Of a DNA stretch of 64,000 nt, positions 21,961 to 49,658 are shown piece after piece. The stretch covers positions 12,432,451-12,496,450 of the forward strand of contig NC_134035.1 of NCBI RefSeq assembly GCF_964204645.1, written 5' to 3'. This stretch comes from Tubulanus polymorphus. Taxonomy: Eukaryota > Animalia > Nemertea. Made by a program: the position numbers and the translations under genes. Position 1 is the stretch's first letter, and every line of letters starts with the position of its first letter. A model generated the notes under the pieces. That model was not told the DNA's origin and did no database searches. It was given only the letters and a program-made list of their open reading frames with translations.

Positions 21961-22817
21961 GCAGTGAAATTGCAGGCTATGATTATATCTTTGATTAGAG
22001 AATAACCGTCACCTTTATGTGATTCCCTTGTGGATGCTCTCCATTCTTGGAGGAACTGGTCCATCAGTTTTTGCTTTAAAGTGGATTTCTGCCATCTAGT
22101 ATTTGGAAAGGATTGTTGATCCCATATGTTGTTTAGCCCTACGGAATACAGAATGATTTTTTTTACGTTGCTTATTCATTTAAAATTTGGAACTATGCAT
22201 TAGTGTAAAAGTTATTGATTATTCCTGCTGTATGTGACATGCCGGATAAAAAGAACGACATTTTTTATATCGCATTCAGTTGAGATTGTGAAGCAGTCTT
22301 TCATGTATCGAGTCGCCGTCGCAGTAACTGCAATTTTTTTTCGGAATTTGAACATGTGTCGTTTTCTCGTCTTGACGTACTTCGTGTTTGTCTGCGCTTT
22401 TCTAGGTAAGTGCATAATACACATACATTTTACTATTCATAAACAGTTGATTTAAGATTTCAATAGAAAGAGGTGTATATTTTTTCAGTCAGAAATGGAT
22501 TCTCATTCTCTGTCTACTTTAAATCGAATGATTCCATTTTCTATTTATTTGAACGTGTAGTAAATTCAATCAGCTAATTCTTTCAATTACTAATCACACA
22601 CGCGTTGACCGAGTCGATTCATTGCTCTTAGCTCGGAATTATATTAACAGCTATTTTTCCTGCCATAATTGATAAAAAGAAAACCTCACGATGAGGGATA
22701 GAAATAGATAAAGAAAAAACGGCAGATGTTTTCTTAATCATGACCATTGAAGAAACACTATTCCGTGTTGTAACGGTATAGTAGAGAATCCCACACTGAT
22801 AAAACAAAAGATGAAGT

Positions 22818-22861
22818 CATTCCTGAAGATGAATATTAGGTTATAGTCGAAACGTCGAATG
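22818..22861 (+). ncRNA. Minimal type-I hammerhead ribozyme motif (family B) inside a Penelope-like palindrome (~22770-22945)
   Basis: CATTC-CTGAAGA-T-GAATAT-TAGGTT-ATAGTC-GAAA-CGTC-GAATG: 5-bp stem I, stem II with one mismatch, palindromic ACGT stem III, GUC cleavage triplet. Confidence 0.65.
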
Positions 22862-23673
22862 AATAAAAAACACATCAGCTACATAGGTAACATTTTTCGG
22901 ACTTCATCTTTCGTTTTATCAGCGTGGCCCGGATTCTCTACTATATTTTCTTTATCGATTTATAGCCGATTAGAAGGCAATGAAGGTGCATCTCAATTGA
23001 TTCAACATCGTTTTTTGATTTATTGTACAGTGAGGTACACAAAACCGACAGGTTTAGGAACAATAATGTTTTTACTGTTTATTGATGCACGATATAATAA
23101 TTACGTGGTACATAAAATATTCTTTAATCATCCTGTCTCATTTTATTGGTTAATTTTGACTATACAACTAAAATTAGTTGATTTGAAATTTTGACTCGAG
23201 AGTTTGTAAGTGTTTTTTTGCGTATTCTTTAGTTATTGAATGAAAGGAAACGAATTATTCGGGTCCATATGTGGAAAGAGGACAGTCGCTGGTGAGATGT
23301 CCACTTGGTCTAGTGAGAGTAGCCTGTACATGTGAACCATGGTGGAGCAAATCTTGCGATGGTGCTAAATTTGCGAGTAAAGGCTGTAGAGCTTACAATC
23401 GTGGCGGAGCTGAAAGAGCGAGGGTAAATAGAGAAAGTTTCATCTTTAAATTAGAAATAATCACATCTCTGTGATCCTTACACTGCTCATTGGGTATTCT
23501 TGTAATCGAAAATATGTAATTCTAATTTCAGAGCGTTGTAACATGCACCGACGATGATACGAATATCTATTACACTGTAACATCGGCATTGGTTGCGAGT
23601 CCGGCAATAACGTGTCCTCTTAATTCAAAAGCTGTCTCCTGCACTGTGACTGTGAAATCCGGGTGAGTTTATA

Positions 23674-23969
23674 AGCCGAGATCACACGGAGACGATTTGG
23701 CCCGGGCCAAAAATGCGTTCACACGCAAACGATTCATTCGATATTAAACAATACCCAAAAAAATGAAGTGGGTCATTTCCGGTACCAGTTGCAATTCAAA
23801 CGCAATAATTTGTCTAGTGCTAAAATTTGGCTCGGGCATGGTCCGAAGTTTTTGGTCGGACCAAATTTGGCCCGGGACAACTGTTCACATGGATGCCCTG
23901 TTTGTTTGGCCCGACCAAAAACGTCGGACCAGGCCCGAGCCAAATTTTAGCACTCGTGTGATCGCGGCT
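23674..23969. mobile_element. MITE with agccg(a/c)gatcacacg TIRs; related partial copies at ~56760-56990 and ~60295-60480
   Basis: Left agccgagatcacacgg, right ctcgtgtgatcgcggct. Internal inverted gtgctaaaatttggctcgggc / gcccgagccaaattttagcac. Confidence 0.7.
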
Positions 23970-24340
23970 ATAGTCTATCATCATATTAATTCTGAGATGA
24001 AAAACCGCCTAGATCATTAATTCAACCAATATTCCGCTAACATTTAAATAATTGCACATAGAATAGAATACATTACATACTGGTTTGATAGGTTTTCCCG
24101 ATTTTGCATTACATTATCATTTGAGAAATTTGACAAAGAAAGATATTGGTCTACTACTGGTTGACAGTTAAGTGCAGTGCCCGTAGAGTGCATTATAGTA
24201 CTCATTTGGTTTTTCTGCCCCTGAAAACAGACCAATTTAGTGCTAATATATTGATTGGCAATAACGAGCGCTCGCTATCATTTTTAATATCAATGGGATT
24301 CGCTCACCAATTTCACCTACGAGCAATTATCTAATTAGAT

Positions 24341-24501
24341 AGAACGATAACCACACTTAAACGTGGTGAACGGATAATAAGATAAAAAAAACCCACTACA
24401 GATTGAAAGAATTAAAAAACAAGAATTTGTTTATTCAATTTAAAATATATAGAAGACACGACGTTTCGATCTCACCCTAGAGATCATCGTCAGGTGTGAG
24501 A
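24341..24501 (-). mobile_element. Penelope-like insertion (family A) with intact hammerhead motif at 24456-24497 (-)
   Basis: ACAC-CTGACGA-T-GATCTC-TAGGGT-GAGATC-GAAA-CGTC-GTGT on the minus strand. 10-bp TSD taattagata; inserted into the centre of a palindrome ctacgagcaattatctaattagataattgctcgtag. Confidence 0.72.
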
Positions 24502-26819
24502 TAATTAGATAATTGCTCGTAGATTTCACGCACGGCGCGCAAAGACTAATGAAAGCATGTACCTTCAGAATGGTGACTGATTCGGGCCATAGTACATAAA
24601 CTTTATTGTCTGTTGATAATAAACTATTGACAAATAACATACAATGACACATTTCTAAAGATGGTAACAACAATTTATAGTCCGAAAAAATCCGAAATAA
24701 CGCAAAACATTATACATCTAATAATCGAGTTGTCCTAAGCTTTTCCATAACTTAAAAAAATCTAGAGATATTTTGAAACATAACAAATTTATCGGTGTTC
24801 GGGTGTACAAAATAATTTCTAGGGATGTATTGAGATCTGGGAGTAGCGAATGTGGGACATGCTTATATAAAACGTGGTATAAAATCTTCAATTCGATCAT
24901 CAATAGGGCAGGTTCGATTCTCATAAAGTAGCGGTTGTGGTCGTCGCCATCTGCCTGTTTCTACACATAGATTATGATTCGAGCATCGGTACCTATTAAA
25001 AGTTATTCTGATCCACTTTGGTAAATCTAGGTATCGTTCATATACAATATTTTAGTCTTGTAGCAACGATAGTAAAAGGCTCTACCTGATAACGAGAGAA
25101 ATCCCGCAATAAATTCAGCCAAAAATGAAAAGTTTAAAAGTAAACGGCTCTATTTGATCTCTGTGGGACGTTTTGAAAGCATTGAGTATACTGATCTTTT
25201 AAACGTTGTTCTATGGAATTGATAAACCATGATTCGTTCTCAACACCTCGACGGATCCAGAATTCTCCGAAGCCTAACTGGTTTAATAAATCATTTACAC
25301 TTGCGGTCCAGATAGATATATCATGGACGTATAAACTAGATTATCTAGTTTATACGTCCATGGATATACCGATATCAGACATTACATCATACATTTTTCT
25401 TATCAACTTATCTGGTTTTGATTTGAGCACTTTTAACCAGAACTTAATTATCTGGATTCGATGTTGGATATTCAAAAGGAATAGGCCTTATTCTCCGTAT
25501 AAAAGTCTGCAAAAAAAGTCAGGCGTGGATTGTTTAACTCCTAAGGAGCCCGGTGGGGACATGGTGAGAAATGAATATATATTTTTTTCGTTCCGGGCCT
25601 CCGTAGTCCTAACATTCTTACTGGTGATAAAGTATGTCTGAAGAATCTAAATATTTAAGCATGCCTGCTTGATTCTCGAATATTCGGGACAAGAAAAGCC
25701 CTGAATAGCCTACGCAAATAGACTATCGGTTTTGTGAAACATTTATCCGTCCAGATTTTCTAAATTACCGAAATCTGTCTTGTTGATTGTAGTTATGGCT
25801 ATTCGAATAAAACACTTGTGATCATAAATGGTGGAAACACGTGTAAAGTTGGCGGATGCAATGAGTGTAGCGTTCAAGCAAGATGTAAGATCAGTAAGTA
25901 CAGAATACGGTTAGCGGTAAAAGTTCCCCTACTGTTGAATGCTTCGTATTTCATATAAGGAAAAACTATTTTCACGATAGCAAAAAGTCAAACACATTTT
26001 GCCACTAGAAATGATGATTAATGATGAATAGAATTGGAAAAATATTTTCATTTGAAATGTTCTTAAAACATCATAAGAGGGGATTTTTTTACCCAATTTG
26101 ATGAATTGGAGAATTACGATCGAAATGTCGCGTCCTTTTGATTCAATCGAATGACACAATCTTATTATTTTTTTGACCGACACATTTATTTTGTATGTTA
26201 TTATTTTAAGACATGCAATGTTCAGACACGGCGATCTATTGATACAAAATTCCACAATAAGAATCACGAATTGAGTCCGAAATATTTCCTTGAGCCAATG
26301 TATAAAAGAGTAGAAATGTTGAATAAACAATAACTCTTGAAAACATTTCGGTGCCGGGTTTCTTTCTTGTGGGATTTTATATTATCGTTACAGCGCGGAC
26401 TCTGACTGTTTCATCCATGTTTATGCTTATCTATTGGCTCTGTCCTGAACTCTCTCACTCATTATCAAATAGTTGATAAAATGCCTGTTTTATTTTTTTT
26501 TTCAGGTAAACAGAAAAATGATGATATTGGTTGTATATTCCGTAATCTCACATCACCAATGGTTCCATATGCAAGTGTGCTTCATAAAAAGATTAGGACA
26601 ATATCGGAGACTGAGTGCGCCGGAGCATGTGTTAAAGAAATCGCTCACTGTAGATCTATAGAATATTTCTCAGGCGCAAGATGTTCACTGAAAAGGTGTA
26701 ATCTACTCAGAGAAACTGATAGACGATTCAAGAAGAGAAAAACCGGATGGATTTATAAAAGCGTCGACCCCAGCACTATCACAGTTTCGTAAAAAAGATC
26801 GAACAATGTAGAAATTAGT

Positions 26820-26945
26820 ACGATACCCACACTCAAACATAGTGAACAGATGATAAGATAAAAACCCACTATTTACAAAAAGAACACGACGTTTCGATCC
26901 TGACGATGATCTCTAGGGTGAGATCGAAACGTCGTGTTCTTATAT
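26820..26945 (+). mobile_element. Penelope-like family A remnant just 3' of the copy 1 stop codon
   Basis: Shares ccacactcaaac...gataagataaaacccactattta with the 16.1 kb copy. Hammerhead core CTGACGA...GAAACGTC at 26900-26933 inside a hairpin; stem I broken. Confidence 0.65.
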
Positions 26946-28506: not shown

Positions 28507-31221
28507 ATGTGTCGTTTTGTCGTCTTCACGTATTTAGTGTTTGCCTGCGCTGTTCTGGGTAAGTGCATACATTTTATTATTCATAAAAAGTGGGTTTTCT
28601 CATAGATTTCGATTGAAATAGGTCGTGTATTTTCTGTCAGGAATTGATTAGGGCAGAAAATCCAAATATAAGCTATTTTTCGCAATTTCCAGAAGGCAAT
28701 TAGCAGGTATTCTAATCAATTTAACATTCTTTTTCCTACTAAATAAAGTACACCTCTCTTAACAGCAACATAATAACGTGTTAACAATTACTGTACAACA
28801 GTGCAAGAAAAAACAATTACGCGCTAAAGAAATATTCTATAAATCACCCAGGCTTCATTCATAAATCGAACTAAAACTAGTTAATCATCTGGGCTTTTAT
28901 TTCTAGAGATAATCCAAAGATAATCGAGAATATGTGGAAATGCGTCCTGAATATTAGAATAAAGTGTTAAATATATAGTTCATTCTAAAAATCTGGTTGA
29001 AATATAGTTTTGTGTATTTTTAGTTGTTGAATGCAAGGAGACGAGTCATTCCGGTCCAACTGTACCAAAAAAAGACGGCGCGCAATCGCTGGTGAAATGT
29101 CCATCTGGTAAACTGAGAGTAGCGTGTACATGTGAACCGTGGAGCTCTTGTGACGGGGCTGAATTTGCGAAGGATGGCTGCATCGGCTCCAATACTGGCA
29201 GAGTTGGAAGCACAAAGGTAAATGGAGAAAAGTGTGATAGGAGATTCATGTCTCACTATATAAGAGCGTTCGTTTCATGAACGAATATGTCGACTTAAAA
29301 TCTCGCATCGGTCAGTGGGAATTAGGTCTATGATCGTGAAAATGTCATTCTATCTTCAGAGCGTTATAAAATGCACCGATGATGTTCAGGATATTTACTT
29401 CACTGTAGGAACGAAATCGGTTACGGTGGCGAATCCGTCAGTAACGTGTCCACTTAATTCAATAGCTGTCTCGTGCACAGCATATACACAGTGAGTATAT
29501 ATAGTATATTATCACATTGATTCTGAGATAGATCATTAATTTAGCCTTAATACAAAAATAATCCCATATATGATTGTACATGCAGGTTTGACAGGGAAGT
29601 GTTTTCCGCATTTTCATACATATTTAATGTTTATTTGAGAAATATGTAAAAACCGATGGTCTATAACTGTTTGAATGTGACGTGCAGCGTGTGGTCCGTA
29701 GAGTACATTGAACATTGTAACACTCAGTTCTTTTCGTCTGCCATTGAAAACGACGTTAACATTGATTAGTTAATTGGACATTAAAATAAGCGCTCGTTAT
29801 TATTTTCATCCATGAGCTTCGACCTTCAGTAACGTGCACAGCGCGCATAGACATAGTGCATTTCAGATTGTTCTTTTTTCTATGTGTTGCGAAGTGTTTC
29901 GTCTTGCTGAAGAGCATTGCAGTCGCGTGAAAAATTTTTCAGGTCGAAATTTCGAATTTTAAACTCGAAATGTCGTCTCTATAACACATGATGTGCGCAT
30001 GCTTAGATTCACACAATGAGAGCAGTTTATCGTTCTCTCTTCAAGCTAAGGTTTAGATAATGCCGAAATACGATATTGCCTTAGCAAGCACGATAACGTC
30101 TTTCTAATTTGAAATTGACGGGCGCACGTCAAGCGAGCTAATTCAGTCGAGATTAAAAGTCGAAATTTCGAGATGAAAAGTCGAAATTTCGGATTTAAAA
30201 GTCGAAATCTCGACTTAGAAAATCATTTTCATGTGGCCGCAATTCTCTTCCGTTCTGCTCATATCAAAAGTATATGTGCCATATCGCCAATAGATGAAGA
30301 GTCGAAATATTTGAGCGTGCGCGTTTGACTCCCAGGTGCAATGATTATGCCTTGCGTAGATAGAGGAACGTCCAATGAGATGGGCGAGTAGGGTAATATA
30401 CAACGGAGAAAAGTAGATTTGTTGTCTCGGCGAATACTATATTGTTACCCGAAATGAATCCGGTCCCACAGTTACGAATATAGAGTTAACTCGGAGTTAG
30501 GATCAGTTCCTTTTCAATGAGTTAACTCAGAGTCAAATCTAAACTCACCGGGAAACTGGTTCTAGATGTTCAACATTCATCGAGAGCATTCTTGACACCG
30601 TGAATATGGACTGAAGGTTTTAAAATTCTGAATTAACAAAATCTGTCTTGTTGATAGTTGGGGCTATCCGGGAAAATCGGTTGCGATTTCAAATGATGGA
30701 AGAACGTGTAAAGTTAGTGGCTGCGATAGATGTAAGGTTCAAGCAAGATGTAAGATCAGTAAGTACAGAACATACAATATTACAGTTCCATTAGATTTAA
30801 ACAATTTTGAGCGTTGAGAATCAATTAAGGACATTTGCACTGACACTTTTTCAAAGCTTTATTTCTATATGGTAGCTCGGTCCTGTATTTATTTCCCCGC
30901 ACTCCTCAATCGACCAGAATGCTTGTTTTCCTTTTTTCAGAAAAACAGAAAACTAATAACATCGGTTGTAAATTTCGCAAAGCTGTCAGTTCATCGGTTC
31001 CCGATTCGGTCTATAAAACGATGCGGACCATATCGGAGCTGGTTTGTATCGGAGCGTGTGTTAACAATCTCGTTTACTGTAGATCTATAGAATATTTCTC
31101 AACCGCGAACAGTTCATTAAAAACGTGTAATTTACATAGAGAAACTGACTTTACCAAACAGAGACAAACTGGATGGATTTATAAAATCGTTGATCCCAGC
31201 ACTATCGTCATCGTTCCATAA
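28507..31221 (+). CDS. Array copy 2: secreted Cys-rich protein, resistin/PCSK9-CTD-like x2 + PAN/apple-like domain (252 aa)
   Basis: Exons 28507-28558, 29024-29217, 29360-29490, 30658-30758, 30941-31221; open frame. Signal peptide MCRFVVFTYLVFACAVL; ECKETSHSGPT...CPSGKLRVACTCEPWSSCDG; CPLNSIAVSC...TCKVSGCDRCKVQARC; PAN-like SELVCIGACVNNLVYCRSIEY...TCNL. Confidence 0.88.
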
Positions 31222-33730: not shown

Positions 33731-33985
33731 AAAAAAAATTCGGGAGGTGAAATTTGCCGGTACATGTTTGGACTATTCTAGGTCCATTAGTTCCCGATTC
33801 AGTTTATGAAATTCTCAATGGGACAATATTGGAGATTGAATGCGCGGAGCATGTGTTAACAATCTTGGTCATCATTAAAAACGTGTAAATTTCACAACTG
33901 TTAAACGGAGAAACTGATTTTACCAAACAGAAACGAACTGCATGCATTTATAAAACCGTCGATCCCAGCACTATCGTCACTGTAA
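33731..33985 (+). pseudogene. Orphan decayed PAN exon (exon 5) of the array family
   Basis: gttcccgattcagtttat...gagattgaatgcgcggagcatgtgttaac...gaaactgattttaccaaacag...gtcgatcccagcactatc matches exon 5, closest to copy 3. It has frameshifts, lacks the CRSIEYFS segment, and has no AG acceptor. Confidence 0.85.
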
Positions 33986-34044
33986 AGAAGATATATCGAA
34001 AAATCTAGTAGTTGTTTGCAGAAATCTAATTTTATCATCAATTT

Positions 34045-34680: not shown

Positions 34681-37600
34681 ATGTATCGGTTTTTGAACGC
34701 CAACCGAAGCGTTTTTCATTTAACTTTTTTGATTTTCATCCGCGCTATTTCAAATCTGAGTAAGTGCTTTGTCTTTTGTATTTTTAATTCGTTTTTTAGC
34801 TAAATGTGCTCGTTTTATACTCCAATAATGGGCTGCATTCTCATTCGTGAACTGTTGATTTGATAGTAAGACCAAGAAAGTAGAATGCTTGATATAGAAT
34901 GAGAATTTTTTATTCACAATTTCGTATCAGAATTTCTAATCTACGCTAGACGCTGTTGTGATCACTAAATTCAAGATTCAGCATAATTTTCGCTTACGAG
35001 CTGATTGTAACAGGAAATATTCACGTAATGCTCCTTTCAGCTCCCTTCTAAATGATTCGATTCATTTGCAAAAAATTGATACAACGATTACAGTCAACAA
35101 GACAGTTGGAGCGTTATACCGGAGCGTTATTGGAGATTCCCCAATAACGTAAAGTTGTTTGATTTGTTCAACTCAAATTGCCAAACCCTTAAAAAACTGG
35201 CGTTGTATATACGCAAATGTTTAATACATTTCTAATGTTAAATGTTGCAATGTCTATTGTAAATTAATTTTGTGCTCTGTGGAGTAAATAAACTAATTGT
35301 AAATATAGCTATTCGTCGATAACAATGACACATGCGAAGAATTAAGGAAAAGCCAAAAGGGCTAAACTATAGTCAATGATTCTGCCTTAATTGCGACGGA
35401 ATATACTGTCACGATTTCTCTACGAATTGTAGATCTAGTTGAATGCGCGGAAAATAGTTATTCGAGCGCATTTATACCTAGAAAGGACGACGCTCAGTCG
35501 TTTGTGAAATGTCCTATCGGTGAAGTGAAAGTGTCCTGTACGTGTAAGCCGTGGAGTTACTGTGACGGGTGTAGATTCCGCAAGGACGGCTGTGTAGGGT
35601 ATAATTCTGGCAGATCTGGCAAGACAAAGGTAATTCAGTTGAGCTTTATTCGTCGTGGGCTATTATAAAAAAGAAAGAAGTACCGCTGAGTGCAACTTAT
35701 ACCGAAGAATGACGGTCAGGTCTGCAAGATTCCAGTTTGACTGGCACCGGCTAAGGTCTTCTGAATCAAAACTTATTATTTTTATTATATCTCTCGACAT
35801 CGAATTACTCGAGGAAGTTTCATCGTAAGAATAGACTACTGCTATTCGGTGACAGCGCGATCAACCTGGTGTGAAACATATCAAGCTACATCCAGTTCCA
35901 CTTTTCGTGGTTAAAATGAATCTACAGTTTTAGATGAAATTATTTCAGTGTTTTGACCCGATATCCAGAACCTGGACTGGTCTCTGGGCTATGATACAAG
36001 TTCCCGACTGTCCAGCATATACAGCTCATACAGTCCAGAACGTGCTGGAACCTACATGAAATTGTACCAACTGAAATATTTGAGATTGATCAATGCAGTT
36101 CCATCAAACTTTTTTGTTTTGGCTTCTTCAAGTGTATTTCACTTAACTTTAATGAGTACTTGATAATGTTTGAAGCATGCCCTTGACAAGCGAGTATTGA
36201 ATTGCGTGGCTGAACAAACCGATATTGAATTCAATAAACACGGGAATTAGAATACAGCAATCATGAGTTTTGCACTTACAGTTGTAAAATCGAATATCCG
36301 AGTTGAATTGAAACAATATCGTGTGGTACGAAAGTTTGGAATATGGAATGTTGAAACAATCTCAAATATCTAAACTATACCTTCTGTAAGCTACCTGTGG
36401 AAATTGGATAAGACTGACGCAGTCATGAGGTTCATTCGATCCAGTTGAAACGAGGTTCCACCGGTCGGTCGAGGAGAGTATACACGTTAAAAGCACGATG
36501 GCTTCTTTATGTTTTTTTTTCTAATTTCAGAGCGTTATAAAATGCACCGACGATGTTCGGAATATTTACTTCACCGTAGAAACGAAATCGTACGCATCAA
36601 ATCCGTCAGTAACGTGTCCACTGAATTCAGTAGCTGTCTCGTGCACATCTCACTCACCGTTAGTATCTATGATAATAATAATCATAATAATAATTTATTT
36701 CTTCATAAAGCGCATTTCTATAAAATATAATCATTGCACATCAGATTACAGAAGATAGGGTTGCATGTTTTATGAACTCGTCGGAAACTCTCGATATCTC
36801 GTACCTCTATCGAACTTATGTCTTTTTTCTTAATTCGAAAAATCGTACGCATATCTGTTTTTCTAATTCGAAAATTGAAGAAATCTTTGTTTGATTCGAA
36901 AATATATCTCGATGTATGGGAAACGTTGCTTTAATCATTGAATAGAGTTTCTGACGAGTTACGTTTCATAAGAAATACCTGCATTTTTTCTTCATTCATA
37001 AATCAGAAAAACAAGACTCAATGCATGTTATCAATGTATATACGAATTATTGTAACAGCTTTTACGGGGCCAAAAATCGCCGAAATTAAAATGTTGCATA
37101 TCGAAACAGCTACAGACTCAATTGCAGATCTCACAAATCAATACCTTCATAAGTTTCTCTTAATGAGTTCATTTATTAACGAGGTTCATTGTGTCAGATA
37201 TTGGTAATAATTTAAAGATTTTCAATAGCTAATGACTATAATTTGCATTCGAGGTGACGGTGACGTCGCTGATTGGCCAAATATCCGTTATAGAAACGAC
37301 ATCGCTCGATGATATCACCCAAAGTCAATATATTAAGCATAGACTCTAAAAAAACCGATTTCGTTGTGAATTTTTTTTTGTTTTTTTTCAATACGTGTCA
37401 CTAAAATGGATAGGTAACTCTAGATGTTTGATATATTACCCGGGGTTAAATGCGTATACGGGTAATGTAGAATTCCACCCTAAATGAAAAAAGTCAAAAA
37501 TGTTTGCACGAAACTAATAGTTTACACGACGTATCGACTATATCCGACTGTAAAGATGTTTTTCGTGTAAGAATACTAGATGTTTTTTAATTCATATAGG

Positions 37601-38611
37601 TGGCGCTATACGAGCAAAACACATTCGATAACGAAAAGTAGAACTTGTAAAGTGAACGGATGTAAGGAATGCTTGACTCAGGCTCGATGTCGGATTAATA
37701 GTGAGTGTACTAGAAAAAACCCACGGGAACCAATATACAATAGCAGTTCAATTATGTTCTGCGTATAAATTGCCCCTGTGACACTGCCATTTCATATAGC
37801 ACCAACTAGGCCTACGAAAAATGAATATCAGTTATAGGACAACTTTCTGGATCCGGTTTCACGAACGAGGATTAAGCCCCTATCCAGTTAATTCGAATTA
37901 GTTTAACCCGTCTACGGAGCAAGATTAAATCGGCTAATTCGTAATAGTTACTACGAACACGAGCTATACTGCAGTGCTCTTGGAGCCGGACCCGAACGCA
38001 AACAACGGAAACATTTCGATTCCAGTAATGAAGATATCTTTTATGTTATGGCCCTTTACATTTTAGAATATATCGAAATTATCATTGGAGAAAGAACTTT
38101 TATAGGACTAATGCATTATGGGAAGCTGATTCGGAGATTTTCGCCAATTCGCGTTTTATAAAACAGATTATTTAATCAACGAATTAGCTAAAGACCCAAA
38201 TAAACATCTTTGATGCCAATTGAAAGTTAAGCCCGTTCATGAAACCGGGCCCAGTCCAATCCTCGCTTACCACAGTCGCACATAGAATCCTCAATCTGAA
38301 CTAATGGTTATATTTTTTTATGTTTAACAGAAAAACGTGAGGCGAAATTCACTGGTGCCGTATTTCAAACTGTTCCAGGCGCATCGGTTCCCGATTCGGT
38401 TTATCGAATTTTTAATGAGACAATATCAGAGATTGAGTGCGCCGGAGCGTGTGTTAACGACCTCGTTTACTGTAGATCTATAGAATATTTCTCAGCCGCG
38501 AACAGTTCATCAAAAACGTGTAAATTACATAGAGAAACTGACTTCACCAAACAGAGACAAACTGGATGGATTTATAAAATCGTTGACCCCAGCACTATCA
38601 CAGTTTCATAA
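34681..38611 (+). CDS. Array copy 3: secreted resistin/PCSK9-CTD-like x2 + PAN protein (261 aa)
   Basis: Exons 34681-34759, 35433-35629, 36531-36658, 37600-37700, 38331-38611; open frame, same intron phases as paralogs. Confidence 0.85.
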
Positions 38612-38912: not shown

Positions 38913-38980
38913 AATGTATACATGCACATGTGTAAATGTATACATGCACATGTGTAAATATATACATGTACATGTGTACA
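38913..38980. repeat. 22-bp tandem repeat (aatgtatacatgcacatgtgta) x3
   Basis: Direct reading of the sequence. Confidence 0.8.
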
Positions 38981-39732: not shown

Positions 39733-42593
39733 ATGCGTCGAATCATCGTCGATTATCAAGGCGTTTTTTATTTTACGTGTTTCGTATTTGTTGCTTGTGC
39801 TTTTATTTCACATATAGGTAAGTACCAACTGCGGTGAGAATGCTGATTATTCGGGCCACGAAATCACAAACTGGACAAATAAGAAGGTTGTTTTTAGTGA
39901 GCGCTGAAGAAAACAAGTTGCTTTCAATGCACGCAGCCCACTAAAAAGAACTATGGGGCCATTTTTAGTTGTTTTCAACGCCCACTGGTCTTAACAATTA
40001 CTTTACTATTAAAGAATAAGATTTCAATTTTTTCCATTAATACATTTTAGACCCGAAGGTGTGAGTTTGATATTTTTATTGGCGTTGTTGTTTTTCAATG
40101 TTAGATTGATAAACACAATATAGCTGCTAGGCGTAGGTTTTACTATATGGAGCTGATTATTTCACGAAACAAAATTGTGTTCAATTAGAATATCTTTCAG
40201 ATGTAGCAATAAATAGTTAACATGTAAACCCTACGATTTCTCTACGAATTGTAGATCTAGTTGAATGCGCGGAAAATAGTTATTCGAGCACTTTTATACC
40301 TAAGAAAGACGACGCCGAGTCGTTTGTGAAATGTCCTATTGGTGAAGTGAAAGTGTCCTGTACGTGTAAGCCGTGGAGTTACTGTGACGGGTGTAGTTTC
40401 GACAGAGACGGCTGTGTAGGGTTTAATTCTGGTAGATCTGGCAGCACAAAGGTAAATAATTCAGTTTTTCAGATTACCTGTATTTGTAGCTGGAAATTGT
40501 TAAGATGAATACTTGTTACACAAGTAGGGCAGCGCCCACCAGTCTATATTTCTAGCCAATCAGATTCGTTGTATTTATAGAGCAAACGTCGTTCCGGTAA
40601 AAAACGCATTTGATTGGCTAGATATATAGACTGTTGGGCGCTGAGCGGGAACCTGTCTGCCCACGAAATCTTGGGCGATGTAATGAAGACCAATGAACGG
40701 TTTGTGGCTAGGGTTTGTGTTGGCGTGAGCTTCGGCAGGCAGCAATCAAACGCTGGCAAGATCAGATTCAGATTATGTCCACCAGGGGGCTAACATGAAG
40801 AGCGACGTTTGCAGCCTAGAGGCCGCAATATTATTGACCGTTTTCTTTCAAGCTTGGTACACAAGTAACACAGAACCCTATTTAGAATCGGGTCGATGCG
40901 ATTCAAATTATGGCCAGCAGGGGGCGACATGAAAATGACGTTAACAGTCTAGAGGCTGCAAATGTAATCGATATTTTTCAAACTCGAAATAATTGTGGCC
41001 ACGATATTTCCAACGCATCCACCACAAACTCTGTAACTCCACATGGTAAGCCGGAGAATTTCAGGCCAGGGCATTCGAGGCGTTTGACTCGTTCTACTAA
41101 CTTACTGATAAATGGACGATTATATCGAGAATATATGTATAAAGAATATTGTCCATTTCAGAAATTCAAATTCTTTTATCGTTGAGATTCAATCGGATAT
41201 ATTTCAGAGTGTTATTAAGTGTACTGATGTACAGAATATCTATTTCACAATATCGACTACTTCGTACCAAGCGAATCCATCAGTAACGTGTCCCCCAAAA
41301 TTCAATAGCTGTCTCCTGCACATCCCACTCGCCGTAAGTATTTCGGATATAGAATATATACATTCGTTGTCGGTACTTGCGACGTGACGCTGTTTCGCTG
41401 GTCATGCGAAGTCATCACAATCACGGAAAAACACACATGCGACGATGATATTCAGCAAGAACCGGTCGGGAGTTAGAGTTTTTCTGAGTTAAAATGAATT
41501 CATTTTTTGAGGCGTAAACTCCGTTATATCTTAACTCACAACTGTGGAAATGGATTCAGTGTTTCATGTACATTTATATCATTCACGTTTATTGGAAAAG
41601 CGATCATTTTTCAAAGCAAACTGTTTGAAAAAAGAATTACACATTTTCAAATGAAGCAGACATTTTCAATTTCCATTAACTGTTTCCTCTGTGCGCTAGT
41701 CTATCGAGACGGGGAAACATTTCTAACAGGTACTATTTGTCACTTTTAGGTGGGGCTACACGAGTAAAACGACTACAATCACAAACAAGCGAACGTGTAA
41801 AGTATCGTCGTGCGAAAAATGTAAAACTCAAGCACGTTGTATGATCAGTAAGTTGTGTACAAAATTATCAATCTATCAGAAAAACTATTTGAATATTAGG
41901 TTATAGTAAACCGTGACCGGAAATTGGTAATGAGTCCGGTTTAAGGATAGGAAAATACTTAAGAATATATAATAAGTTAGTGAATGGTCCCAGTATAAGG
42001 CGTGGTTTACCGTAGGCCGAGTGGTCAATCCAGGTTTAACAATGGCTACAGTATCGAGGCGTTTGAAGTCTTCAAAACCGACATCGCCTGACAATACTTT
42101 ACTATAAGTATATGACTCAAAGGGAGGATATTACTTTTAAGATAGAATATACCCCTTCTACAAGAGACGACTGTATTTTCAGAATATAAACAAATGCATC
42201 TATCCTCGATTTTGTCGTTGAATCACGATATACAGACACCGGTAAAAATGATCGGTTGAAGTCGTCGGTTGTTGAATGTTGCGGTTGATTTACGCATTTC
42301 CTTTTTGTTTTTCAGATTCCGAAAATAAGAAACATATCGGTTGTAAATTTCGCAAAGCTGTCGGTTCATCGGTTCCCGATTCGGTCTATAAAACGATGCG
42401 GACCATATCGGAGCTGGTTTGTATCGGAGCGTGTGTTAACGATCTCGTTCACTGTAGATCCATAGAATATTTCTCAACCGTGAACAGTTCATTAAAAACG
42501 TGTAAATTACATAGAGAAACTGACTTTACCAAACAGAGACAAACTGGATGGATTTATAAAATCGTTGACTCCAGCACTATCACAGTTTCATAG
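39733..42593 (+). pseudogene. Array copy 4: same architecture with a +1 frameshift in exon 3 (or a homopolymer sequencing error)
   Basis: Exons 39733-39817, 40255-40451, 41208-41333, 41750-41847, 42316-42593. Exon 3 is 126 nt versus 125 in copies 5 and 6: tgtCCCCCaaaattca (41292-41296) versus tgtCCACaaaattca. The shifted frame stops at TAA early in exon 4. Confidence 0.75.
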
Positions 42594-42770
42594 AATTGTT
42601 TCTGCTCGCTCAGGTTCACTATTCGTCCAGCCGTCCACAGAATCAAACAGTTTTGGAAACACGTCTGATGTATTGTATAAACAATCTTAATATACATGTA
42701 CCTATCCTAGATACGTAATTGCCTAATCAGAATCAAGATGGTCGTGGCCATTGTAATTCGCTAAAACCAG

Positions 42771-42909
42771 GGGCCAGTTGCACAGTCATGACTTAAGTCC
42801 AAAAGTGGTCTTAAATCATAAGACCGGTCTTTAATTGTTAGATTTGCTATAGAAATAAGTTGGTCTTAGACTAGTCTTAAGTCTAAGTCATGACTATGCA
42901 ACCAGCCCC
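42771..42909. mobile_element. MITE gggccagttgcacagtcatgact...agtcatgactatgcaaccagccc (relative at ~6260-6435)
   Basis: Near-perfect inverted arms, flanked by cag on both sides. Confidence 0.72.
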
Positions 42910-43210
42910 AGGACATGTTTTTCAAATGCAGAATACAGATCATCTAGACCAATCGGCTATAACTCCCCTAGTTTCAGCTTGAATCAATTCACAGAAATCT
43001 CATTTGCATATTTATTGCATTTTCTCAGTTTGCACCAAATATAGACCGATATTGTTTTGCAAAATATCGGCGGTAGTAAAAAGAGATGCTGCAAAACATG
43101 TTGAATGATTCATCAGTTGACGTCGGTGGCGCTCAATTTTTATCAATAATACATGAACGAAGTGCAGGTTCTGCTCGTTATTTCAAACGCATCGGATGCA
43201 AGATTCAAAC

Positions 43211-46200
43211 ATGTGTCGTTTTACCTCCAATTTTCAAAACATTTCTTATTCGACGTGTCTAGTGTGCTTTACCTGCACACTTGTTTTGCCGTTAGGTAAG
43301 TATAATTATCGATTAATAACTATTTTATTTGAATGATGATTGTCTTTTTTTTCATTTAATTCCATTGACTGGAAGTTGCTGTTTACAGCAACTTGATCTC
43401 TTGCGATTATATCAACAATCAGAGGCGGCCAGAGGAAAACCCTGTTAGTCTTACTGTGGCTAGTGGATTATCCGTGGTTTAGGCTAAGCAGCTTGATATA
43501 AGAGGCCACGCGAAGACAATGGTTACCTAACAGCGTTTTCCTGCACCCATTTATGCCTAACCACAGTTTGCTATTCACGTTTGGCACGAACAGGGTTTCC
43601 TGCGCTGACCTCTGTTAGCCTTACCATGGTAAATAGCTTATCCGCGGTTTAGGGTAACCAGCTTCAAAAAAGAGCCCGCACTAACCGCGGTTAGCTAACA
43701 GCGATTCCTGCACCTATTTACGTCTAACCACAGTTAACTAAACCGATTGGCACGAACAAGGTTTTCCGGCGTCCGCCCCAGTTTTGTTTTTAGAATTAGG
43801 AATCAGAAATAACGGAATTGCGTTATAAGCCGCAGACATTGAGACATTCTGCGTGAATTGTAGATTTAGTCGAGTGCAAGGTCACGAATTATTCGAGTCC
43901 GTTTGCGGCCAAAATAAATGACGAGGAATCATTGGTAAGATGTCCGACTGGTTTAGTGAAAGTTTCCTGTCATTGCACGCCGTGGAGTTACTGTGACGGT
44001 AGCAAATTCTACAGAGATGGCTGTGTAGGGTTTAATTCCGGTAAAACTGGCAAAACAAAGGTAATTCAGCTGAACGTTTTATCTGTTTATTTTATGTCTA
44101 AAAATTAAAAAGATATTTATGATAGTACGATTGAATCTATTTTGACTGGAGAATGACTGTCAGATCTGCAACTCATGTCGAGCTTCTAGTTCGACATGCA
44201 TCGGTGAAATTACTCTCGAAATTAGTTAGTTTTTTTCTTAACGGACGCGTCCTGGTTACATAAATCATGTTGAGACTTGCCAATTGAAATCAAGAAAAGC
44301 ATGATCTTTTTAATCAGATACAACGGTGTTTTCGCCCGGCGGCCATTTTAATTCCGACCTTTTTACCGAAAAAACTCATTTTCATATATCATTTTCATAT
44401 ATAATAACTTGTTGTTTTGTTTTCGATCGGCGGCTATTTAATTCTGACTTTTAGCCCGACCGATGAATACGTTTGATCGAACCGTTCTCATCTACACATT
44501 TACACGCGGAAGCGCCGCACACTGTTGCGTATCGCGTTGTCAAGCATCACTGCGCCCTTTATTAATGCAACGCAACGTATTGGTGCATACCATCATCGAA
44601 CCTGTCGACTTGGTTATTACCAATAATATTATATATGATTTGTACGGAAGTGATAGAGGGCCATCGGTTGTCACGTTCCAAAACTCGACAAGTCACTATA
44701 CTTATGTCAACAAATATGGCGACTTGTCGAGTTGGAACGCGACAACTAGAGACCCTTTTTCGCTCCCGTTGATTTCGTAATAAAAAGTCCGAATTCCGGT
44801 CGAAAAAAACGTCTTTTTTATCGATCGGCAAAAAAAAAAACATTATAGTAATCATAATCTTCCGTAGTTTTCGGTACAATCTAGCATTTCTAAAATTGTC
44901 GAATTGTTTCAGAGTGTCATTGAATGTACTGATGAACAGAATATCTATTTCACAATATCGACTACTTCTTTCGAAGCGAATCCATCAGTAACGTGTCCAC
45001 AAAATTCAATAGCTGTTTCCTGCACAGCGCATACCTAGTAAGTATTATATTTACAGTTACCGAAAACCACACTTAATATGCAGATTGTGAATCATTTTCT
45101 ACGATGGGAATAGACACATCTTTTAGTAATTCTTAATGACTATGAGTAAAAATCCCGCAATAAATGAATTAATCTAAAAAAGTTTATTAAAAAATTTCAG
45201 GTGGTTGCTGCCACCCTAATCCAGCCAAAATGATAGGCTGATCGCTTTTAAACTGAAGAAGGGTGGCAGCAACCTCCCGAAAGATTTCTAATTTCCAAAT
45301 AAACTTTTTAGATTCATTCATTTTTTGTGGGATTTTTACTCATCGTCTTATCACGGATATTGTTATTCTCAACACTGATTCATCTTAAATGATCAATTTC
45401 TTATTTTCAGGGTTTTTTACTCGTCCCGTAGTGATATTTTTCTTTTCATTTATATATATTCATACACGCGTATATTAGAAAGCAATGCTTATAGAAAACC
45501 ATCATATTGAAGCAAATAATATTACATTTCCGAAATCGAATAACTAAAATTTGACATTTTCATTTTCTAAACTCTGGAGTATCTTCTTTTAAAAACCCTA
45601 CATGAGTGACGAGTACGCGGTATAAAACGAAGGTTTGTGACTGTTTTTTGGGATCCGATCGGCTTCTTGAATAGAATACAAAAAACGTCTTGTTTGGTAC
45701 ACCAGGTAGAAATGATGAATACCATACAATTATTACATCTTTCGAGCATTTTCGTTTACCGTTTCCCCTTTTACATCGATTTACACTGCAAAAAAGGCTC
45801 CGATCATCAACGAGGGTACCGGGGGTATTTGTGAAATCCTTTTTTTCTAATGACCAAGAAGACTAAAATTGATTTCGCAATTTCAGTAATTTAATTTTCC
45901 TTCGATCGATTTGATTGTGATATATTTTCCTTTATATCAATTATACATATTTCTAAATATATATTTTCATATAAGTAATGCTTTGAAGTGATAAGAACAA
46001 AATTTCATCGATTTTCAAAATTCGACATTTTTATGCTCCAATTCGTGAACCATATTCACGGGCGGCAACACTAGAAATTCACTTGAGGCAATTTTTGTTC
46101 GGTAAATGATGGCTATTGGTGGTTTTCTCAATAAATTGTCTTTAAATGAAGAAAATATCGAAAGGCCTTGTCTAACGCATCAGGCTCGAACTGGAAAAGC

Positions 46201-46895
46201 TATATGATTATCGCATCTTTTTGTGTAATTTTGTTTACCGTTTTCTTGTATTTCTAGCTGGATTTACTCGTCTAAAAAGACACAAATAATTAACAAGAGA
46301 ACTTGTAAAGTATCGTCGTGCGACAGATGCACAACCCAGGCTCGATGTATGATCAATCAGTCACTCGGAAAAGGTTAGGTGCAGTCCAGTTGAGGGGTAC
46401 TTGGGTTCGAATCTTGATGGGGGCAGGGTTTCTTCTCACTCGTGTTTATTCGTGAAAAGATACCTCCATCCTCGAGTGGCGCTCAGCGGGTTAACTGTCG
46501 AGAAGAAAGATCGTCATGATTTTAAATTATGTTGGCTGTGCATTGAAAATACATTTTCGCTAATAATGGTTTGGAATCTGATGTATTAAAATGGAGGCAT
46601 CCCTGTCATTTCAGATCTCACAAATACGAAGCGTATTGGTTGTAAATTTCGTGTTGAGGAAGCGGGTCCAAAGGTTTCAGGTTCTGTTTATAAAACGATT
46701 CACAATGTATCGGAGCTGGTTTGTATCGGGGCGTGTGTTAACGATCTCGTTCACTGTCGATCTATAGAATATTTCTCAGCCGCGAACAGTTCATCAAAAA
46801 CGTGTAATTTACATAGAGAAACTGACTTTACCAAACAGAGACAAACCGGATGGATTTATAAAATCGTTGACCCCAGCACTATCACAGTTTCATAG
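43211..46895 (+). CDS. Array copy 5: secreted resistin/PCSK9-CTD-like x2 + PAN protein (267 aa)
   Basis: Exons 43211-43295, 43864-44060, 44913-45037, 46258-46373, 46615-46895; open frame. Confidence 0.87.
43421..43780. mobile_element. MITE-like element with internal ~165-bp duplication; related copy at ~57890-58050
   Basis: Termini gaggcggccagaggaaaacc / ggttttccggcgtccgcccc. Shared body ccctgttag...ttatccgtggtt...aagaggcc...gaagacaatggtta(c/g)ctaacagcgttttcctgc. Confidence 0.65.
45143..45342 (+). mobile_element. Third palindromic Penelope-like remnant with degenerate hammerhead core
   Basis: Inverted arms gagtaaaaatccc...gggatttttactc. CTGAAGA-A-GGGTGG-CAGCAA-CCTCCC-GAAA at 45253-45282; stem I not evident. 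Confidence 0.5.
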
Positions 46896-47497
46896 AATTT
46901 TTTCAGCTTACTTTTCGTCCATCCGTTACTTCGTTCACAGAATCAAGAATGTTCAATAGTTCTTGAATACGTTGTTTTAAGATTTAATCGTCTTCGTATA
47001 AATGTTTCAGCCCTTGACGCATCTGCAGTCTAGAATTGCCTAATCAGAACCAAGATGGTTTTTGTCAATTTTGTCAATTTCAAAATTCAGATGTGGATTT
47101 ACCTTCATTTATCACAATTACATCAAGCGCATCGGGTTAAAGATTCAAACATGTGTCGTTTTTTGACAATTTCAAAATTCAGATTAATACTCACTTATTG
47201 CGTATAGTTTCCCTGGGACCCTAACCTGAATCTGATCTGATTCACAGACAACTCATTTGCATATTATTGTATTTTCTCAGCTTAATAGCTGCACCAGTTA
47301 CAGGAATTGGAAATTCTAAATCAATACTTTGTGAAAATGTGGAGGTCATAAAACAGACAGAGATGAAAAACATCTTGAATAATTCATCAGTCGCTGTTGC
47401 TTGCACTCATTTTTTTCAACAATAAAACGTTAACAAACTGCTGTTTTTACTTCATTTATCGCAATTACATGAAGCGCATCGGATTAAAGCCTCAGAA

Positions 47498-49658
47498 ATG
47501 TGTCGTTTTACCGTCAATTTTCAAGGCGTTTCTTTTTCTACGTTTTTGGTGGTTTTTACCTGCGCAATTATGTTACCTTTAGGTAAGTGATCATCGATTC
47601 TTCACTTCTAAAAGGACGTTTATATTTTCTTTTTTTCCATTCAATTCGATTGATGTGAAAAACAAAAAGCCTGGCTCAGAAAATACCTCATTAGCTTTTT
47701 ACAAGTTTTGATCAGTTGTGATTCTATCCGTTTTGTGTTGAGAGTAAGGACTATAAGAAGTAATGCAATTGCGTTATAAGCCGCAGACATTGAGACATTC
47801 TGCGTGAATTGTAGATTTAGTCGAGTGCAAGGTCACGAGTTATTCGAGTTCATTTGTGGCTAAAGTAAACGACAGGGAATCATTGGTAAGATGTCCGACT
47901 GGTTTAGTGAAAGTTTCCTGTCATTGCACGCCGTGGAAACACTGTGACGGTAGCAAATTCTACAGAAATGGCTGTGTAGGGTTTAATTCCGGTAAAACTG
48001 GCGAAACAAAGGTAATTCAGCTGAACTTTATTTGTTGTTGGCAAAAATTTTAAAAAGCAGAAAATCTACTCGTCCTGAAGAATGAGTCAGATCTACAACT
48101 CATGCTTCTACTTCGACAGGTATCGGTGAAATCAAGCTCAAAATTAGATAATTTCTCGACATTTCTCGACGTCTGCGGGTTCGAGATATTAGATTACGTT
48201 TCGGAATTTTGGTAGCAATCTCTTTAAAAATACCCGATCGAATTTTTTTTCAGAGCGTTATAAAATGCACTGACGAACAGAAAATCTATTTCACAATGTC
48301 GACTACTTCTTGGCGAGCGAATCCATCAGTAACGTGTCCACAAAATTCAATAGCTGTCTCCTGCACAGCGCATACGAAGTTAGTATATAATATATAGAAA
48401 AAGAGCAAATCGCCTTTAAAATTAGTACATCATCAGTATGCAGTGGCTTTCTTTGGCTGGGAAAGTTATCAATAACAGTTTTTTAAGTAAATGTGCTTTT
48501 TTTTCTAGAAATATGCCTGGTTTTCATTAACCCTTTCAGTGCGTCTACACCACAGTGCGGTGTATAAATCATTGATAGATTTTGCTAGTACACCGCACTG
48601 CGGTGTATTGATGTAATTAGTAATTTGTAATTATCTCTATTGAAAAATGGCAGCACGTGTCAAACATAGTGAAATACTAGTAACTAATGATACACCGCAC
48701 CGCAGTGTAGACGCACTATAGTGGTATTCCCGTTGTTCAACACACTAGGGTGCAATTTTTTAGAATTTTCAAATTATCTCCAGCACTATAGGGTATTAAT
48801 TAGTCAGCACTGAAAGGGTTTTAAGCAAATAATTTGTTCCCAAAAATCGTTCGGCTTCCTATAGAAGTTAAACGTTGCCCTATACAACTTGATAGGGTAA
48901 TCCTTCTATAATTGTTTTGATCGTCTGTGTAGACATATTCGTCAAAGTAGATATTTTCATTTCCCAAGTAATGAAGCATCTTAAAAAACACTAGAAATGT
49001 CACTAGTGTAAATATACCCGGTAAACGAAGACTTGTGATGACTTCAATTAGAGTTACCTTTTTCTTTTATTTGTAGATGGAGGTACGCGTCTAAGAGGAC
49101 TAGAATCATAAACAAGAGAACTTGTAAAGTATCGTCGTGCAACAAATGTACAACCCAGGCTCGATGTATGACCAATCAGTCAGTTGGAAAAGGTAAAGTC
49201 CAGTTCAATCGATGACTCTTGGCTTCGAATCTTGAAGGTGGCTGAGTTTCTTGGTCGAATGTTCTTCTATCTCCCCGTAATCGTGAAAAGACACCTGGAA
49301 CCCCGCGTGGCGCTCGGCGGTTTGAATAACGAAAAGAAAACACTATCATTTGAAATGTAGCGTTCTTTTGTTTTCAGATCTCAAAAATATGAAGCGTATT
49401 GGTTGTAAATTCAGAGTTGCGATGGGTCCAAGGGTTCCAGCTTTTGTTTATAAAACGATTCACAATGTATCGGAGCTGGTTTGTACCGGAGCGTGTGTTA
49501 ACGATCTCGTTCACTGTAGATCTATAGAATATTTCTCAGCCGCGAACAGTTCATCAAAAACGTGTAATTTACATAGAGAAACTGACTTTACCAAACAGAG
49601 ACAAACTGGATGGATTTATAAAATTGTCGAGCCCAGCACTATCGATATGAGTCGATAA
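47498..49658 (+). CDS. Array copy 6: secreted resistin/PCSK9-CTD-like x2 + PAN protein (267 aa)
   Basis: Exons 47498-47582, 47815-48011, 48254-48378, 49077-49192, 49378-49658; open frame; closest to copy 5. Confidence 0.87.
48531..48818. mobile_element. piggyBac-type MITE (288 bp) in copy 6 intron 3
   Basis: TTAA|CCCTTTCAGTGC ... GCACTGAAAGGG|TTTTAA. Internal palindromes tacacc(a/g)ca(g/c)tgcggtgta. Confidence 0.78.

What the first reader, a model, noticed from the sequence alone, without database searches (positions are those of the whole stretch)
22354..49658. Six-gene tandem array of secreted proteins: two resistin/PCSK9-CTD-like modules fused to a PAN/apple domain
Seen: six co-oriented paralogs share five exons (phases 1,0,2,1). 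Most exons are missed or mis-framed by the ORF track. Architecture: signal peptide; module 1 EC-x20-CPxG-x5-CxCxPW-x2-CDG-x5-GC-x16-C; module 2 CPxNSxAVSC...W.Y...TCKVxxCxxCxxQARC; then C-x3-C-x6-CRSIEY-x10-CxL...GWIY. Known: resistin/RELM has CPxG with C-x8-C-x-C and ends in ARCC; PCSK9's C-terminal domain is three resistin-like modules (module 1 includes HSGPT, also present in copy 2); PAN/apple domains have C-x3-C...C-x-S/A...C-x-L and bind glycans or proteins; some RELMs are bactericidal. Inference: a lineage-specific, rapidly duplicating family of secreted recognition/effector proteins (mucus, innate-immune, venom or gamete-surface). I do not recognise this domain combination as a named family.
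Basis: partly seen in the sequence, partly recalled or inferred. Interest (0 to 1): 0.9.

Follow-up and report, generated by a model that had tools for sequence, protein, structure and literature searches.

The report
Ribbon-worm resistin-like PAN protein array
Six neighbouring ribbon-worm genes (four intact, two broken) encode likely secreted proteins that join two modules predicted to fold like the hormone resistin and the tail of human PCSK9 to a PAN/apple domain whose core DNA is nearly identical between five copies; they likely work as surface-binding proteins of mucus or epithelia and belong to an apparently unnamed invertebrate family.

Summary
The array is real. There are six co-oriented five-exon genes with intron phases 1,0,2,1. 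Copy 2 is identical to a Tubulanus polymorphus RefSeq protein.

The domain calls hold. Exon 5 passes Pfam PAN_1 in 6 of 6 copies. A model of the N-terminal 144 residues (pLDDT 81) matches PCSK9 modules M1+M2 (Z 10.2) and resistin (Z 7.6), that is, two-thirds of a three-walled beta-prism.

The architecture is not confined to this lineage. The two-module unit recurs in Lineus, Lingula, Saccoglossus and Ciona. It is followed by PAN in Saccoglossus and perhaps in Lineus.

New here: copies 2-6 are mosaics. The PAN core is homogenised even at silent sites, while the modules are old and divergent under purifying selection (dN/dS 0.22-0.56 in all 15 pairs). No positive selection was seen.

Best reading (about 45%): cationic secreted two-ended binders at mucus or epithelial surfaces, with a constant PAN end and a variable prism end. 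Expression, secretion, oligomer and activity are untested. Verdict: a new variant of a known kind, moderate interest.

The parts
22354..26792 (+). Copy 1; exons 22354-22405, 23233-23423, 23532-23662, 25793-25893, 26506-26792; in-frame TGA at 23241-23243, likely pseudogene or null allele
   Evidence: a short-read contig of run X1 covers 22893-23709 with no difference from the window; no SECIS-like match downstream
28507..31221 (+). Copy 2, intact, 252 aa; exons 28507-28558, 29024-29217, 29360-29490, 30658-30758, 30941-31221
   Evidence: identical to RefSeq XP_074660970.1
31513..32637 (-). Single-exon rhodopsin-family 7TM receptor-like ORF lying inside the array; not shown to be linked in function
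   Evidence: Pfam 7tm_1 E 2e-4, below the curated cut-off
33743..33984 (+). Decayed orphan exon 5 (PAN), relic of a seventh copy
   Evidence: tblastn, nhmmer E 9e-37
34681..38611 (+). Copy 3, intact, 261 aa; exons 34681-34759, 35433-35629, 36531-36658, 37600-37700, 38331-38611; weakest signal-like N-terminus; lacks the first PAN cysteine
39733..42593 (+). Copy 4; exons 39733-39817, 40255-40451, 41208-41333, 41750-41847, 42316-42593; frameshift in exon 3 near 41292; mosaic (exon 2 like copy 3, exons 3-4 like copies 5/6, exon 5 like copy 2)
43211..46895 (+). Copy 5, intact, 267 aa; exons 43211-43295, 43864-44060, 44913-45037, 46258-46373, 46615-46895
47120..47215 (+). Partial relic of exon 1 upstream of copy 6
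   Evidence: nhmmer E 9e-7
47498..49658 (+). Copy 6, intact, 267 aa; exons 47498-47582, 47815-48011, 48254-48378, 49077-49192, 49378-49658; most basic copy (net +23)

Best explanation
These genes encode likely secreted, basic, disulfide-rich proteins that probably act as two-ended binders at a mucus or epithelial surface: a PAN domain, nearly identical between copies 2-6, would hold a shared partner such as a glycan or matrix protein, while a divergent pair of modules predicted to fold like resistin and the PCSK9 tail would grip varied targets such as anionic microbial surfaces. Shown: gene structure, PAN match, high net positive charge, purifying selection, and homogenised PAN core against divergent modules. 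Predicted: the two modules pack like M1+M2 of PCSK9, that is two of the three walls of a beta-prism. Inferred and untested: secretion, tissue, ligands, a defensive role, and completion of the open prism by self-association or by the partner.
For: Fold: AF2 model of residues 18-161 with pLDDT 81.5. Foldseek's top 28 listed rows are all PCSK9 (best E 5e-4, TM 0.61). VIA among 48,161 chains: PCSK9 M1 Z 10.6 / rmsd 1.9 / 73 aligned for module 1; PCSK9 452-604 Z 10.2 / 3.7 / 129 for the pair; resistin Z 7.6 / 2.2 / 58 and RELM-beta Z 7.3 for module 2; next unrelated row 4.9. Sequence link: 5 of 14 non-self hits are repeat proteins, 4 of them above a Pfam PCSK9_C1/C3 cut-off on both or one model and the fifth on C3; a profile of their repeats scores module 1 at 35-40 bits in 6 of 6 copies against a maximum of 11.7 in 1200 shuffles. 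PAN_1 is above cut-off in 6 of 6 exon-5 products. The unit's partners in relatives are extracellular domains: FN2, FN3 plus a membrane helix, EGF, PAN. Net charge of the mature chains is +9 to +23. Analogy: the RELM-beta C-terminal head binds anionic lipid and permeabilises liposomes (PMC13647132, section 2.3); the related APC-beta prism anchors Toxoplasma PLP1 to membranes (PMC6294395, passages); the PCSK9 modules bind proteins (PMC9113161, passages). Silent-site differences are lower in the PAN core than in the modules in 9 of 10 pairs among copies 2-6 at p<0.02, and 6 of all 15 pairs survive Bonferroni. Exon trees reject each other (AU p 6e-29 to 0.01).
Against: No expression, tissue, secretion or activity data were obtained. 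No sign of positive selection: dN/dS 0.22-0.56, upper 95% bound below 1 in 15 of 15 pairs for the mature chain, whereas recognition arms races often show it (site models not run). A shared fold shows no function, and this fold serves hormones, protein adaptors and membrane anchors. The two-module unit in 9 relatives has net charge -5 to +9, so the charge argument applies to this array only. Homogenisation of the PAN core may be a by-product of its slower evolution, not a selected 'constant region'. The core boundary was picked after viewing the alignment, and the pairs are not independent. Module 2 scores no better than shuffles against the PCSK9-type repeat profile (3-7 bits), so its assignment rests on predicted structure. 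The signal peptide was judged by hydropathy only.
Confidence: 0.45

Rival explanations
1. Structural or adhesive components of the animal's own secretions (mucus, dwelling tube, egg coat) or gamete-surface recognition proteins; the two ends cross-link self molecules, possibly through the spare cysteines (positions 21 and 169 of copy 2).
For: Purifying selection without acceleration. Odd cysteine counts in the module pair (13) and in PAN (5) leave one spare in each part. Basic, disulfide-rich chains suit a cross-linked matrix. That Tubulanus secretes tubes is recalled, not from a call.
Against: No low-complexity or repetitive matrix-like segment; compact two-domain build. Disulfide pairing was not read from a model. 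No tissue data.
Confidence: 0.22
2. Venom or defensive-mucus toxins (or toxin-targeting subunits) that act on membranes of prey or predators.
For: Nemerteans carry protein toxins in mucus and proboscis (PMC6410017, passages). The copies are basic, cysteine-rich and tandemly duplicated, with birth-and-death turnover. Fold relatives include membrane-active RELMs and the PLP1 anchor.
Against: No pore-forming or enzyme domain in the chain. No positive selection. Relatives occur in Lingula, Saccoglossus and Ciona, animals not known to me as venomous (recalled). Two array motifs and the words resistin, apple and PCSK9 gave 0 hits in the supplement of a nemertean toxin-transcript survey that includes this species (that survey lists homologues of known toxins only).
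Confidence: 0.13
3. Signalling ligands or receptor adaptors (resistin- or PCSK9-like protein-protein function) acting inside the body.
For: The PCSK9 modules bind CAP1 and MHC-I, and resistin is a cytokine (PMC9113161, passages). A relative carries the unit on a membrane protein with FN3 domains (P0006). PAN often mediates protein binding (own knowledge).
Against: Six divergent, recombining tandem copies with two losses are unusual for a signalling ligand (inference). No receptor is known; the neighbouring 7TM ORF is not shown to be related.
Confidence: 0.12
4. A largely decaying array in which only copy 2 is still used.
For: Only copy 2 was found in the protein collection in three searches. 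Copies 1 and 4 are broken, two relic exons lie in the array, and copy 3 has a weak N-terminal hydrophobic stretch.
Against: Copies 3, 5 and 6 keep all splice sites and open frames. dN/dS is 0.31-0.46 among them, including 0.46 (0.27-0.78) in the young pair 5/6.
Confidence: 0.08

Closest known systems
[quoted passage not shown]
   Same: Predicted module fold and the packing of two adjacent modules; module 1 linked by sequence through invertebrate or unassigned repeat proteins that pass these Pfam models.
   Different: Two modules, not three; no protease; no direct Pfam match; neither module has the full six-cysteine set; fused to PAN.
Resistin / RELM family (Pfam PF06954; PDB 1rgx, 1rh7)
   Same: Predicted beta-sandwich head fold; signal-like N-terminus, cysteine-rich; module 1 has a C-x8-C-x-C motif.
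   Different: Two modules plus PAN in one chain; no helical coiled-coil tail in the model; 6-8 cysteines per module against ten in the RELM head (PMC13647132).
PAN/apple domain proteins (Pfam PF00024)
   Same: Exon 5 passes the curated cut-off in 6 of 6 copies; four core cysteines invariant.
   Different: A single PAN behind a resistin-like pair; 4-6 cysteines in the exon; no protease, kringle or ZP partner.
Unnamed invertebrate two-module proteins: Saccoglossus XP_006818615.2, Lineus XP_064649669.1 / XP_064648907.1 / XP_064635769.1 / XP_064642682.1, Lingula XP_013390711.1, Ciona XP_078490857.1, Tubulanus XP_074659421.1
   Same: Same two-module unit with the module-2 W and CxxC..C pattern; Saccoglossus has PAN_1 directly behind it.
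   Different: 23-35% identity; other partners (none, FN2, EGF, FN3); mostly less basic; none has a functional name.
APC-beta domain of apicomplexan perforin-like proteins (PDB 6d7a, 7pln)
   Same: Same beta-prism subgroup (Z 5.3-5.5; PMC6294395 places it with the PCSK9 V-domain).
   Different: Three walls, attached to a MACPF pore domain; weak match only.

Membership tests
PCSK9 C-terminal domain | Module fold (beta-sandwich wall of a double-layer beta-prism) | tested here: met
   Predicted model against solved structures: Z 10.6 (module 1), Z 10.2 (pair); Foldseek; Atlas TM 0.82 to a PCSK9_C1 region
PCSK9 C-terminal domain | Pfam PCSK9_C1/C2/C3 score above cut-off | tested here: not met
   No hit for copy 2 whole or for 13 module-coding exon pieces; link is only through intermediates
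PCSK9 C-terminal domain | Three modules in one chain | tested here: not met
   Two modules, then PAN
PCSK9 C-terminal domain | Six cysteines per module paired 1-6, 2-5, 3-4 (PMC9113161) | tested here: not met
   Each module ends in a single cysteine, module 2 lacks the first one, and both carry an extra pair; pairing itself not read from the model
Resistin/RELM | One ten-cysteine head per chain behind a helical coiled-coil tail | tested here: not met
   Two modules of 6-8 cysteines; no helix of 4 or more residues in the model
Resistin/RELM | Head fold | tested here: met
   Z 7.6 and 7.3 for module 2; Foldseek probability 0.98-0.99 for RELM-beta
Resistin/RELM | Oligomer formation and membrane permeabilisation | not testable with these tools
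PAN/apple | Pfam PAN_1 above curated cut-off | tested here: met
   6 of 6 exon-5 products, 23.6-28.4 bits against 21.4; the full-length copy 2 gave no hit
PAN/apple | PAN fold in a predicted model | tested here: inconclusive
   Own full-length model has pLDDT about 30 in this part; the Atlas model aligns residues 161-244 to an apple-domain protein at TM 0.71 by target, under the tool's bar for naming
Selenoprotein (copy 1) | SECIS element behind the gene | tested here: not met
   No SECIS family among 13 Rfam rows at E up to 10 in 26500-28500; own pattern scan 0 hits in 2 kb, with no positive control
Known nemertean peptide/protein toxins | Sequence likeness to described toxins | tested here: inconclusive
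   No toxin family in Pfam or PDB sequence searches; text search of two supplements gave 0 hits; no direct comparison with toxin sequences was run

The most novel reading that the evidence does not exclude
The resistin/PCSK9 beta-prism exists in invertebrates as an ancient stand-alone two-walled unit, and this ribbon worm uses it as a diversifying antimicrobial or cytolytic head: RELM-beta-like membrane attack completed by self-association, on a PAN 'constant region' that gene conversion keeps uniform while exon swapping makes new heads. That would be an invertebrate counterpart of vertebrate mucosal RELM defence with a constant-variable design.
Probability: 0.15. Interest if true: 0.8.

Novelty: new variant of a known kind. 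Interest (0 to 1): 0.5.

Why it matters
Resistin and the PCSK9 tail are studied almost only in vertebrates, and the solved members of this prism subgroup that my searches returned have three walls (three modules in a chain, or one module in a trimer). This locus and its relatives point to a two-module version that is a mobile extracellular domain across nemerteans, a brachiopod, a hemichordate and a tunicate. I found no name or description for it in the library searched. Small, secreted-type copies such as these would be a direct way to ask what the ancestral module binds and whether the membrane-killing activity of RELM-beta is old. The constant-PAN / variable-module mosaic also gives a natural domain-swap series. 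If the proteins prove to be plain mucus binders, the value is an annotation of a new invertebrate domain family.

Tried and rejected
No whole genome was held, so copy number elsewhere in the genome is unknown. No RNA holder was listed. The three runs listed behave as DNA contigs: they cover introns, and none of the joints shown matches an intron (many rows were not shown). Expression is therefore untested.

PDB sequence searches with copy 2, the exon-2 profile and the exon-5 profile gave only chance-level rows. Three word-based homologue searches returned only copy 2 and one Lineus protein already in the query, although the full HMMER scan found 14 relatives. Those blanks show low sensitivity, not absence.

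The first AF2 run (full length, exon-2-only alignment) was poor, pLDDT 44. Alignments A3 and A4 of exon fragments were misaligned and discarded. Selenocysteine read-through for copy 1 was rejected for lack of a SECIS.

PAN in the tails of two Lineus relatives: profile comparison and Pfam gave nothing (the same profile comparison also missed the Saccoglossus PAN). A small own profile beat all but 7 and 1 of 500 shuffles, so this is weak support only. The 7TM ORF was not found by exact look-up.

Literature searches with no relevant paper in the listings: PCSK9+resistin+C-terminal domain+invertebrate, PCSK9_C1, PCSK9+xylanase+GH10, PAN/apple+gene conversion+tandem array, PCSK9+mollusc+secreted+cysteine-rich, 'resistin-like domain'. 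The library lacks most subscription papers.
Full report
Observation. The window is AT-rich animal DNA. Self-comparison shows five blocks repeated six times on the + strand between 22.3 and 49.7 kb. Splice-site inspection gives six five-exon genes with GT..AG introns and phases 1,0,2,1. The spliced products are 252-267 aa and 51-84% identical, with a hydrophobic N-terminal stretch and no later membrane-length segment. An exon-2 profile search returned one protein among 1414 candidates, identical to my copy-2 model and named LOC141913364 of Tubulanus polymorphus, a palaeonemertean ribbon worm. This supports the exon model and names the source. Exon profiles find six copies of each exon and two relics.

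Copy 1 has an in-frame TGA at codon 21, a column that is cysteine in the other five. A short-read contig of run X1 spans it with no difference from the window, so it is unlikely to be an assembly error, though X1 may be the assembly's own sample. Selenocysteine was tested: no SECIS match in Rfam or in my own uncalibrated pattern scan. Copy 4 is frameshifted in exon 3. The reads are ambiguous: one X1 contig runs over the spot without a gap but only about 12 letters from its end, and one contig each of X1 and X2 differs from the window there, which could be another allele or copies 5/6 laid on copy 4. So 4 of 6 copies are intact in this assembly.

Domains. Exon 5 passes Pfam PAN_1 in 6 of 6 copies, although the whole copy-2 protein gave no Pfam hit. 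The N-terminal 144 residues have no Pfam match. A HMMER scan of 1.84 billion representatives gave 15 hits at E up to 0.001, one of them self. Five are repeat proteins that match PCSK9_C1 and C3, each above the cut-off of at least one model. Nine carry the same two-module unit as the array. A profile of 11 repeats from the first group scores module 1 at 35-40 bits in all six copies against at most 11.7 in 1200 shuffles, but module 2 only at shuffle level. With the relatives as alignment, AF2 gives pLDDT 81.5 and pTM 0.68, all beta. Foldseek's top 28 listed rows are all PCSK9. VIA-align ranks PCSK9 M1 (Z 10.6, rmsd 1.9, 73 residues), PCSK9 M1+M2 (Z 10.2, 3.7, 129), resistin (7.6) and RELM-beta (7.3) first among 48,161 chains. 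The apicomplexan APC-beta prism follows (5.3-5.5), and the best unrelated row is 4.9. The earlier poor model gave the same four top chains for module 2. The Atlas's own model matches the PCSK9_C1 part of mollusc GH10 proteins at TM 0.82 over 141 residues and PCSK9 itself. The unit is therefore predicted to be two walls of the three-walled prism.

Distribution. The unit stands alone in Lingula, Lineus and a second Tubulanus gene. It precedes FN2 repeats in Lineus, sits between EGF domains in Ciona, and heads an unnamed FN3 membrane protein. In Saccoglossus it is followed directly by PAN_1 above cut-off and then EGF. Two Lineus proteins have tails with weak PAN likeness (7 and 1 of 500 shuffles reach their scores; other tests blank). 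The six window copies group together (91/89, long branches), so the expansion looks local while the domain and probably the architecture are old. These counts come from one search with one query at 50% clustering and are lower bounds. Earlier scan notes report PCSK9/resistin-like modules in a sea-urchin receptor, a protist and several prokaryotes. They are unchecked, but they agree that the module is mobile and lower the surprise.

Evolution. Pairwise dN/dS over the mature chain is 0.22-0.56, with the 95% bootstrap bound under 1 in 15 of 15 pairs (simple counting method, no site models). Silent divergence in the modules is mostly 0.5 to saturated, but in the PAN core it is 0.06-0.27 among copies 2-6. 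Silent differences are rarer in the PAN core in 9 of 10 such pairs at p<0.02; 6 of all 15 pairs survive Bonferroni; pair 5/6 and three pairs with copy 1 show no difference. Exon trees conflict: exon 2 rejects the exon-3 and exon-5 trees (AU p 6e-29 and 3e-4), and exon 3 rejects the exon-2 and exon-5 trees (0.011 and 8e-7), while the exon-4 tree is not rejected by exons 2, 3 or 5. Copy 4 is 85-98% like copy 3 in exon 2, like copies 5/6 in exons 3-4, and 92-98% like copy 2 over residues 167-241. Runs of matching sites exceed permutation in 6 of 15 pairs at p<0.005. Short-read contigs link copy 4 exon 4 to the start of exon 5, and copy 3 exon 2 to exon 5, which argues against a pure assembly chimera. 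Gene conversion or unequal crossing-over is the simplest reading. Whether it is selected is unknown, the core boundary was chosen after viewing the data, and the pairs are not independent.

Mechanism. Shown: structure of the genes, PAN, basic charge (+9 to +23), constraint and mosaicism. Predicted: the fold. Inferred: secretion and a two-ended binding role. The closest functional analogies are the RELM-beta head, which binds anionic lipid, multimerises and permeabilises liposomes and Gram-negative bacteria; the APC-beta prism, a membrane anchor; and the PCSK9 modules, which bind proteins. I put about 45% on mucus or epithelial surface binding with a likely defensive role, 22% on structural or gamete use, 13% on toxin, 12% on signalling and 8% on decay. 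One spare cysteine in each half (21 and 169) could staple the domains or link chains; this is inference.

Comparison and novelty. It works like a PCSK9-tail or resistin module pair plus PAN, but it is not a member of either vertebrate family: module number, cysteine set, coiled-coil tail and Pfam score are not met. It is a PAN-domain protein. I found no description of the two-module unit or of this fusion in six targeted searches, in a library that lacks most subscription papers. Verdict: new variant of a known kind, interest 0.5.

Papers seen. PMC13647132: passages and section 2.3. PMC9113161: passages. PMC6294395: passages. PMC6410017: passages. PMC7460313 and PMC9415933: passages and a term search of one supplementary file each. 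All others were seen as search listings only. General statements on PAN ligands, on Tubulanus tubes, on the HSGPT motif in PCSK9 and on which animals are venomous are recalled and come from no call.

Noticed in passing
window 1391-5679 (+): End of a rhodopsin-family receptor gene (7tm_1) with a very long C-terminal tail; looks like a glycoprotein-hormone / LGR-type receptor (label recalled).
   Followed up: no
window about 7400-11100 (-): Multi-exon cytochrome P450 gene (Pfam p450).
   Followed up: no
window 31513-32637 (-): Intronless 375-aa 7TM receptor-like ORF inserted between copy 2 and the relic seventh copy; below the Pfam cut-off; exact sequence not in the protein collection.
   Followed up: partly
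window 23816-23954, 34046-34268, 40530-40643, 42767-42912, 45138-45347, 48538-48717: Short inverted-repeat elements in introns and spacers, several at very high read depth, MITE-like.
   Followed up: no
copies 1, 3, 4 (cysteine columns): Cysteines shift in step: copy 1 lacks the N-terminal one and has an extra in PAN; copy 3 lacks the first PAN cysteine and has an extra in module 1; the mature count stays 18 in 5 of 6 copies.
   Followed up: partly
ESM Atlas rows: Mollusc GH10 (xylanase-type) proteins with CBM_4_9 carry PCSK9_C1 modules (66% of 85 members), and several Actinomycetota and Myxococcota clusters have similar predicted folds; hints at a carbohydrate-related role for the module.
   Followed up: no
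P0018 (Lingula cluster member): 578-aa record with the two-module unit repeated three times plus a half unit; may be a fused model of a tandem array like this one.
   Followed up: no
window 62450-63380: Long AAT/GAT trinucleotide microsatellite.
   Followed up: no
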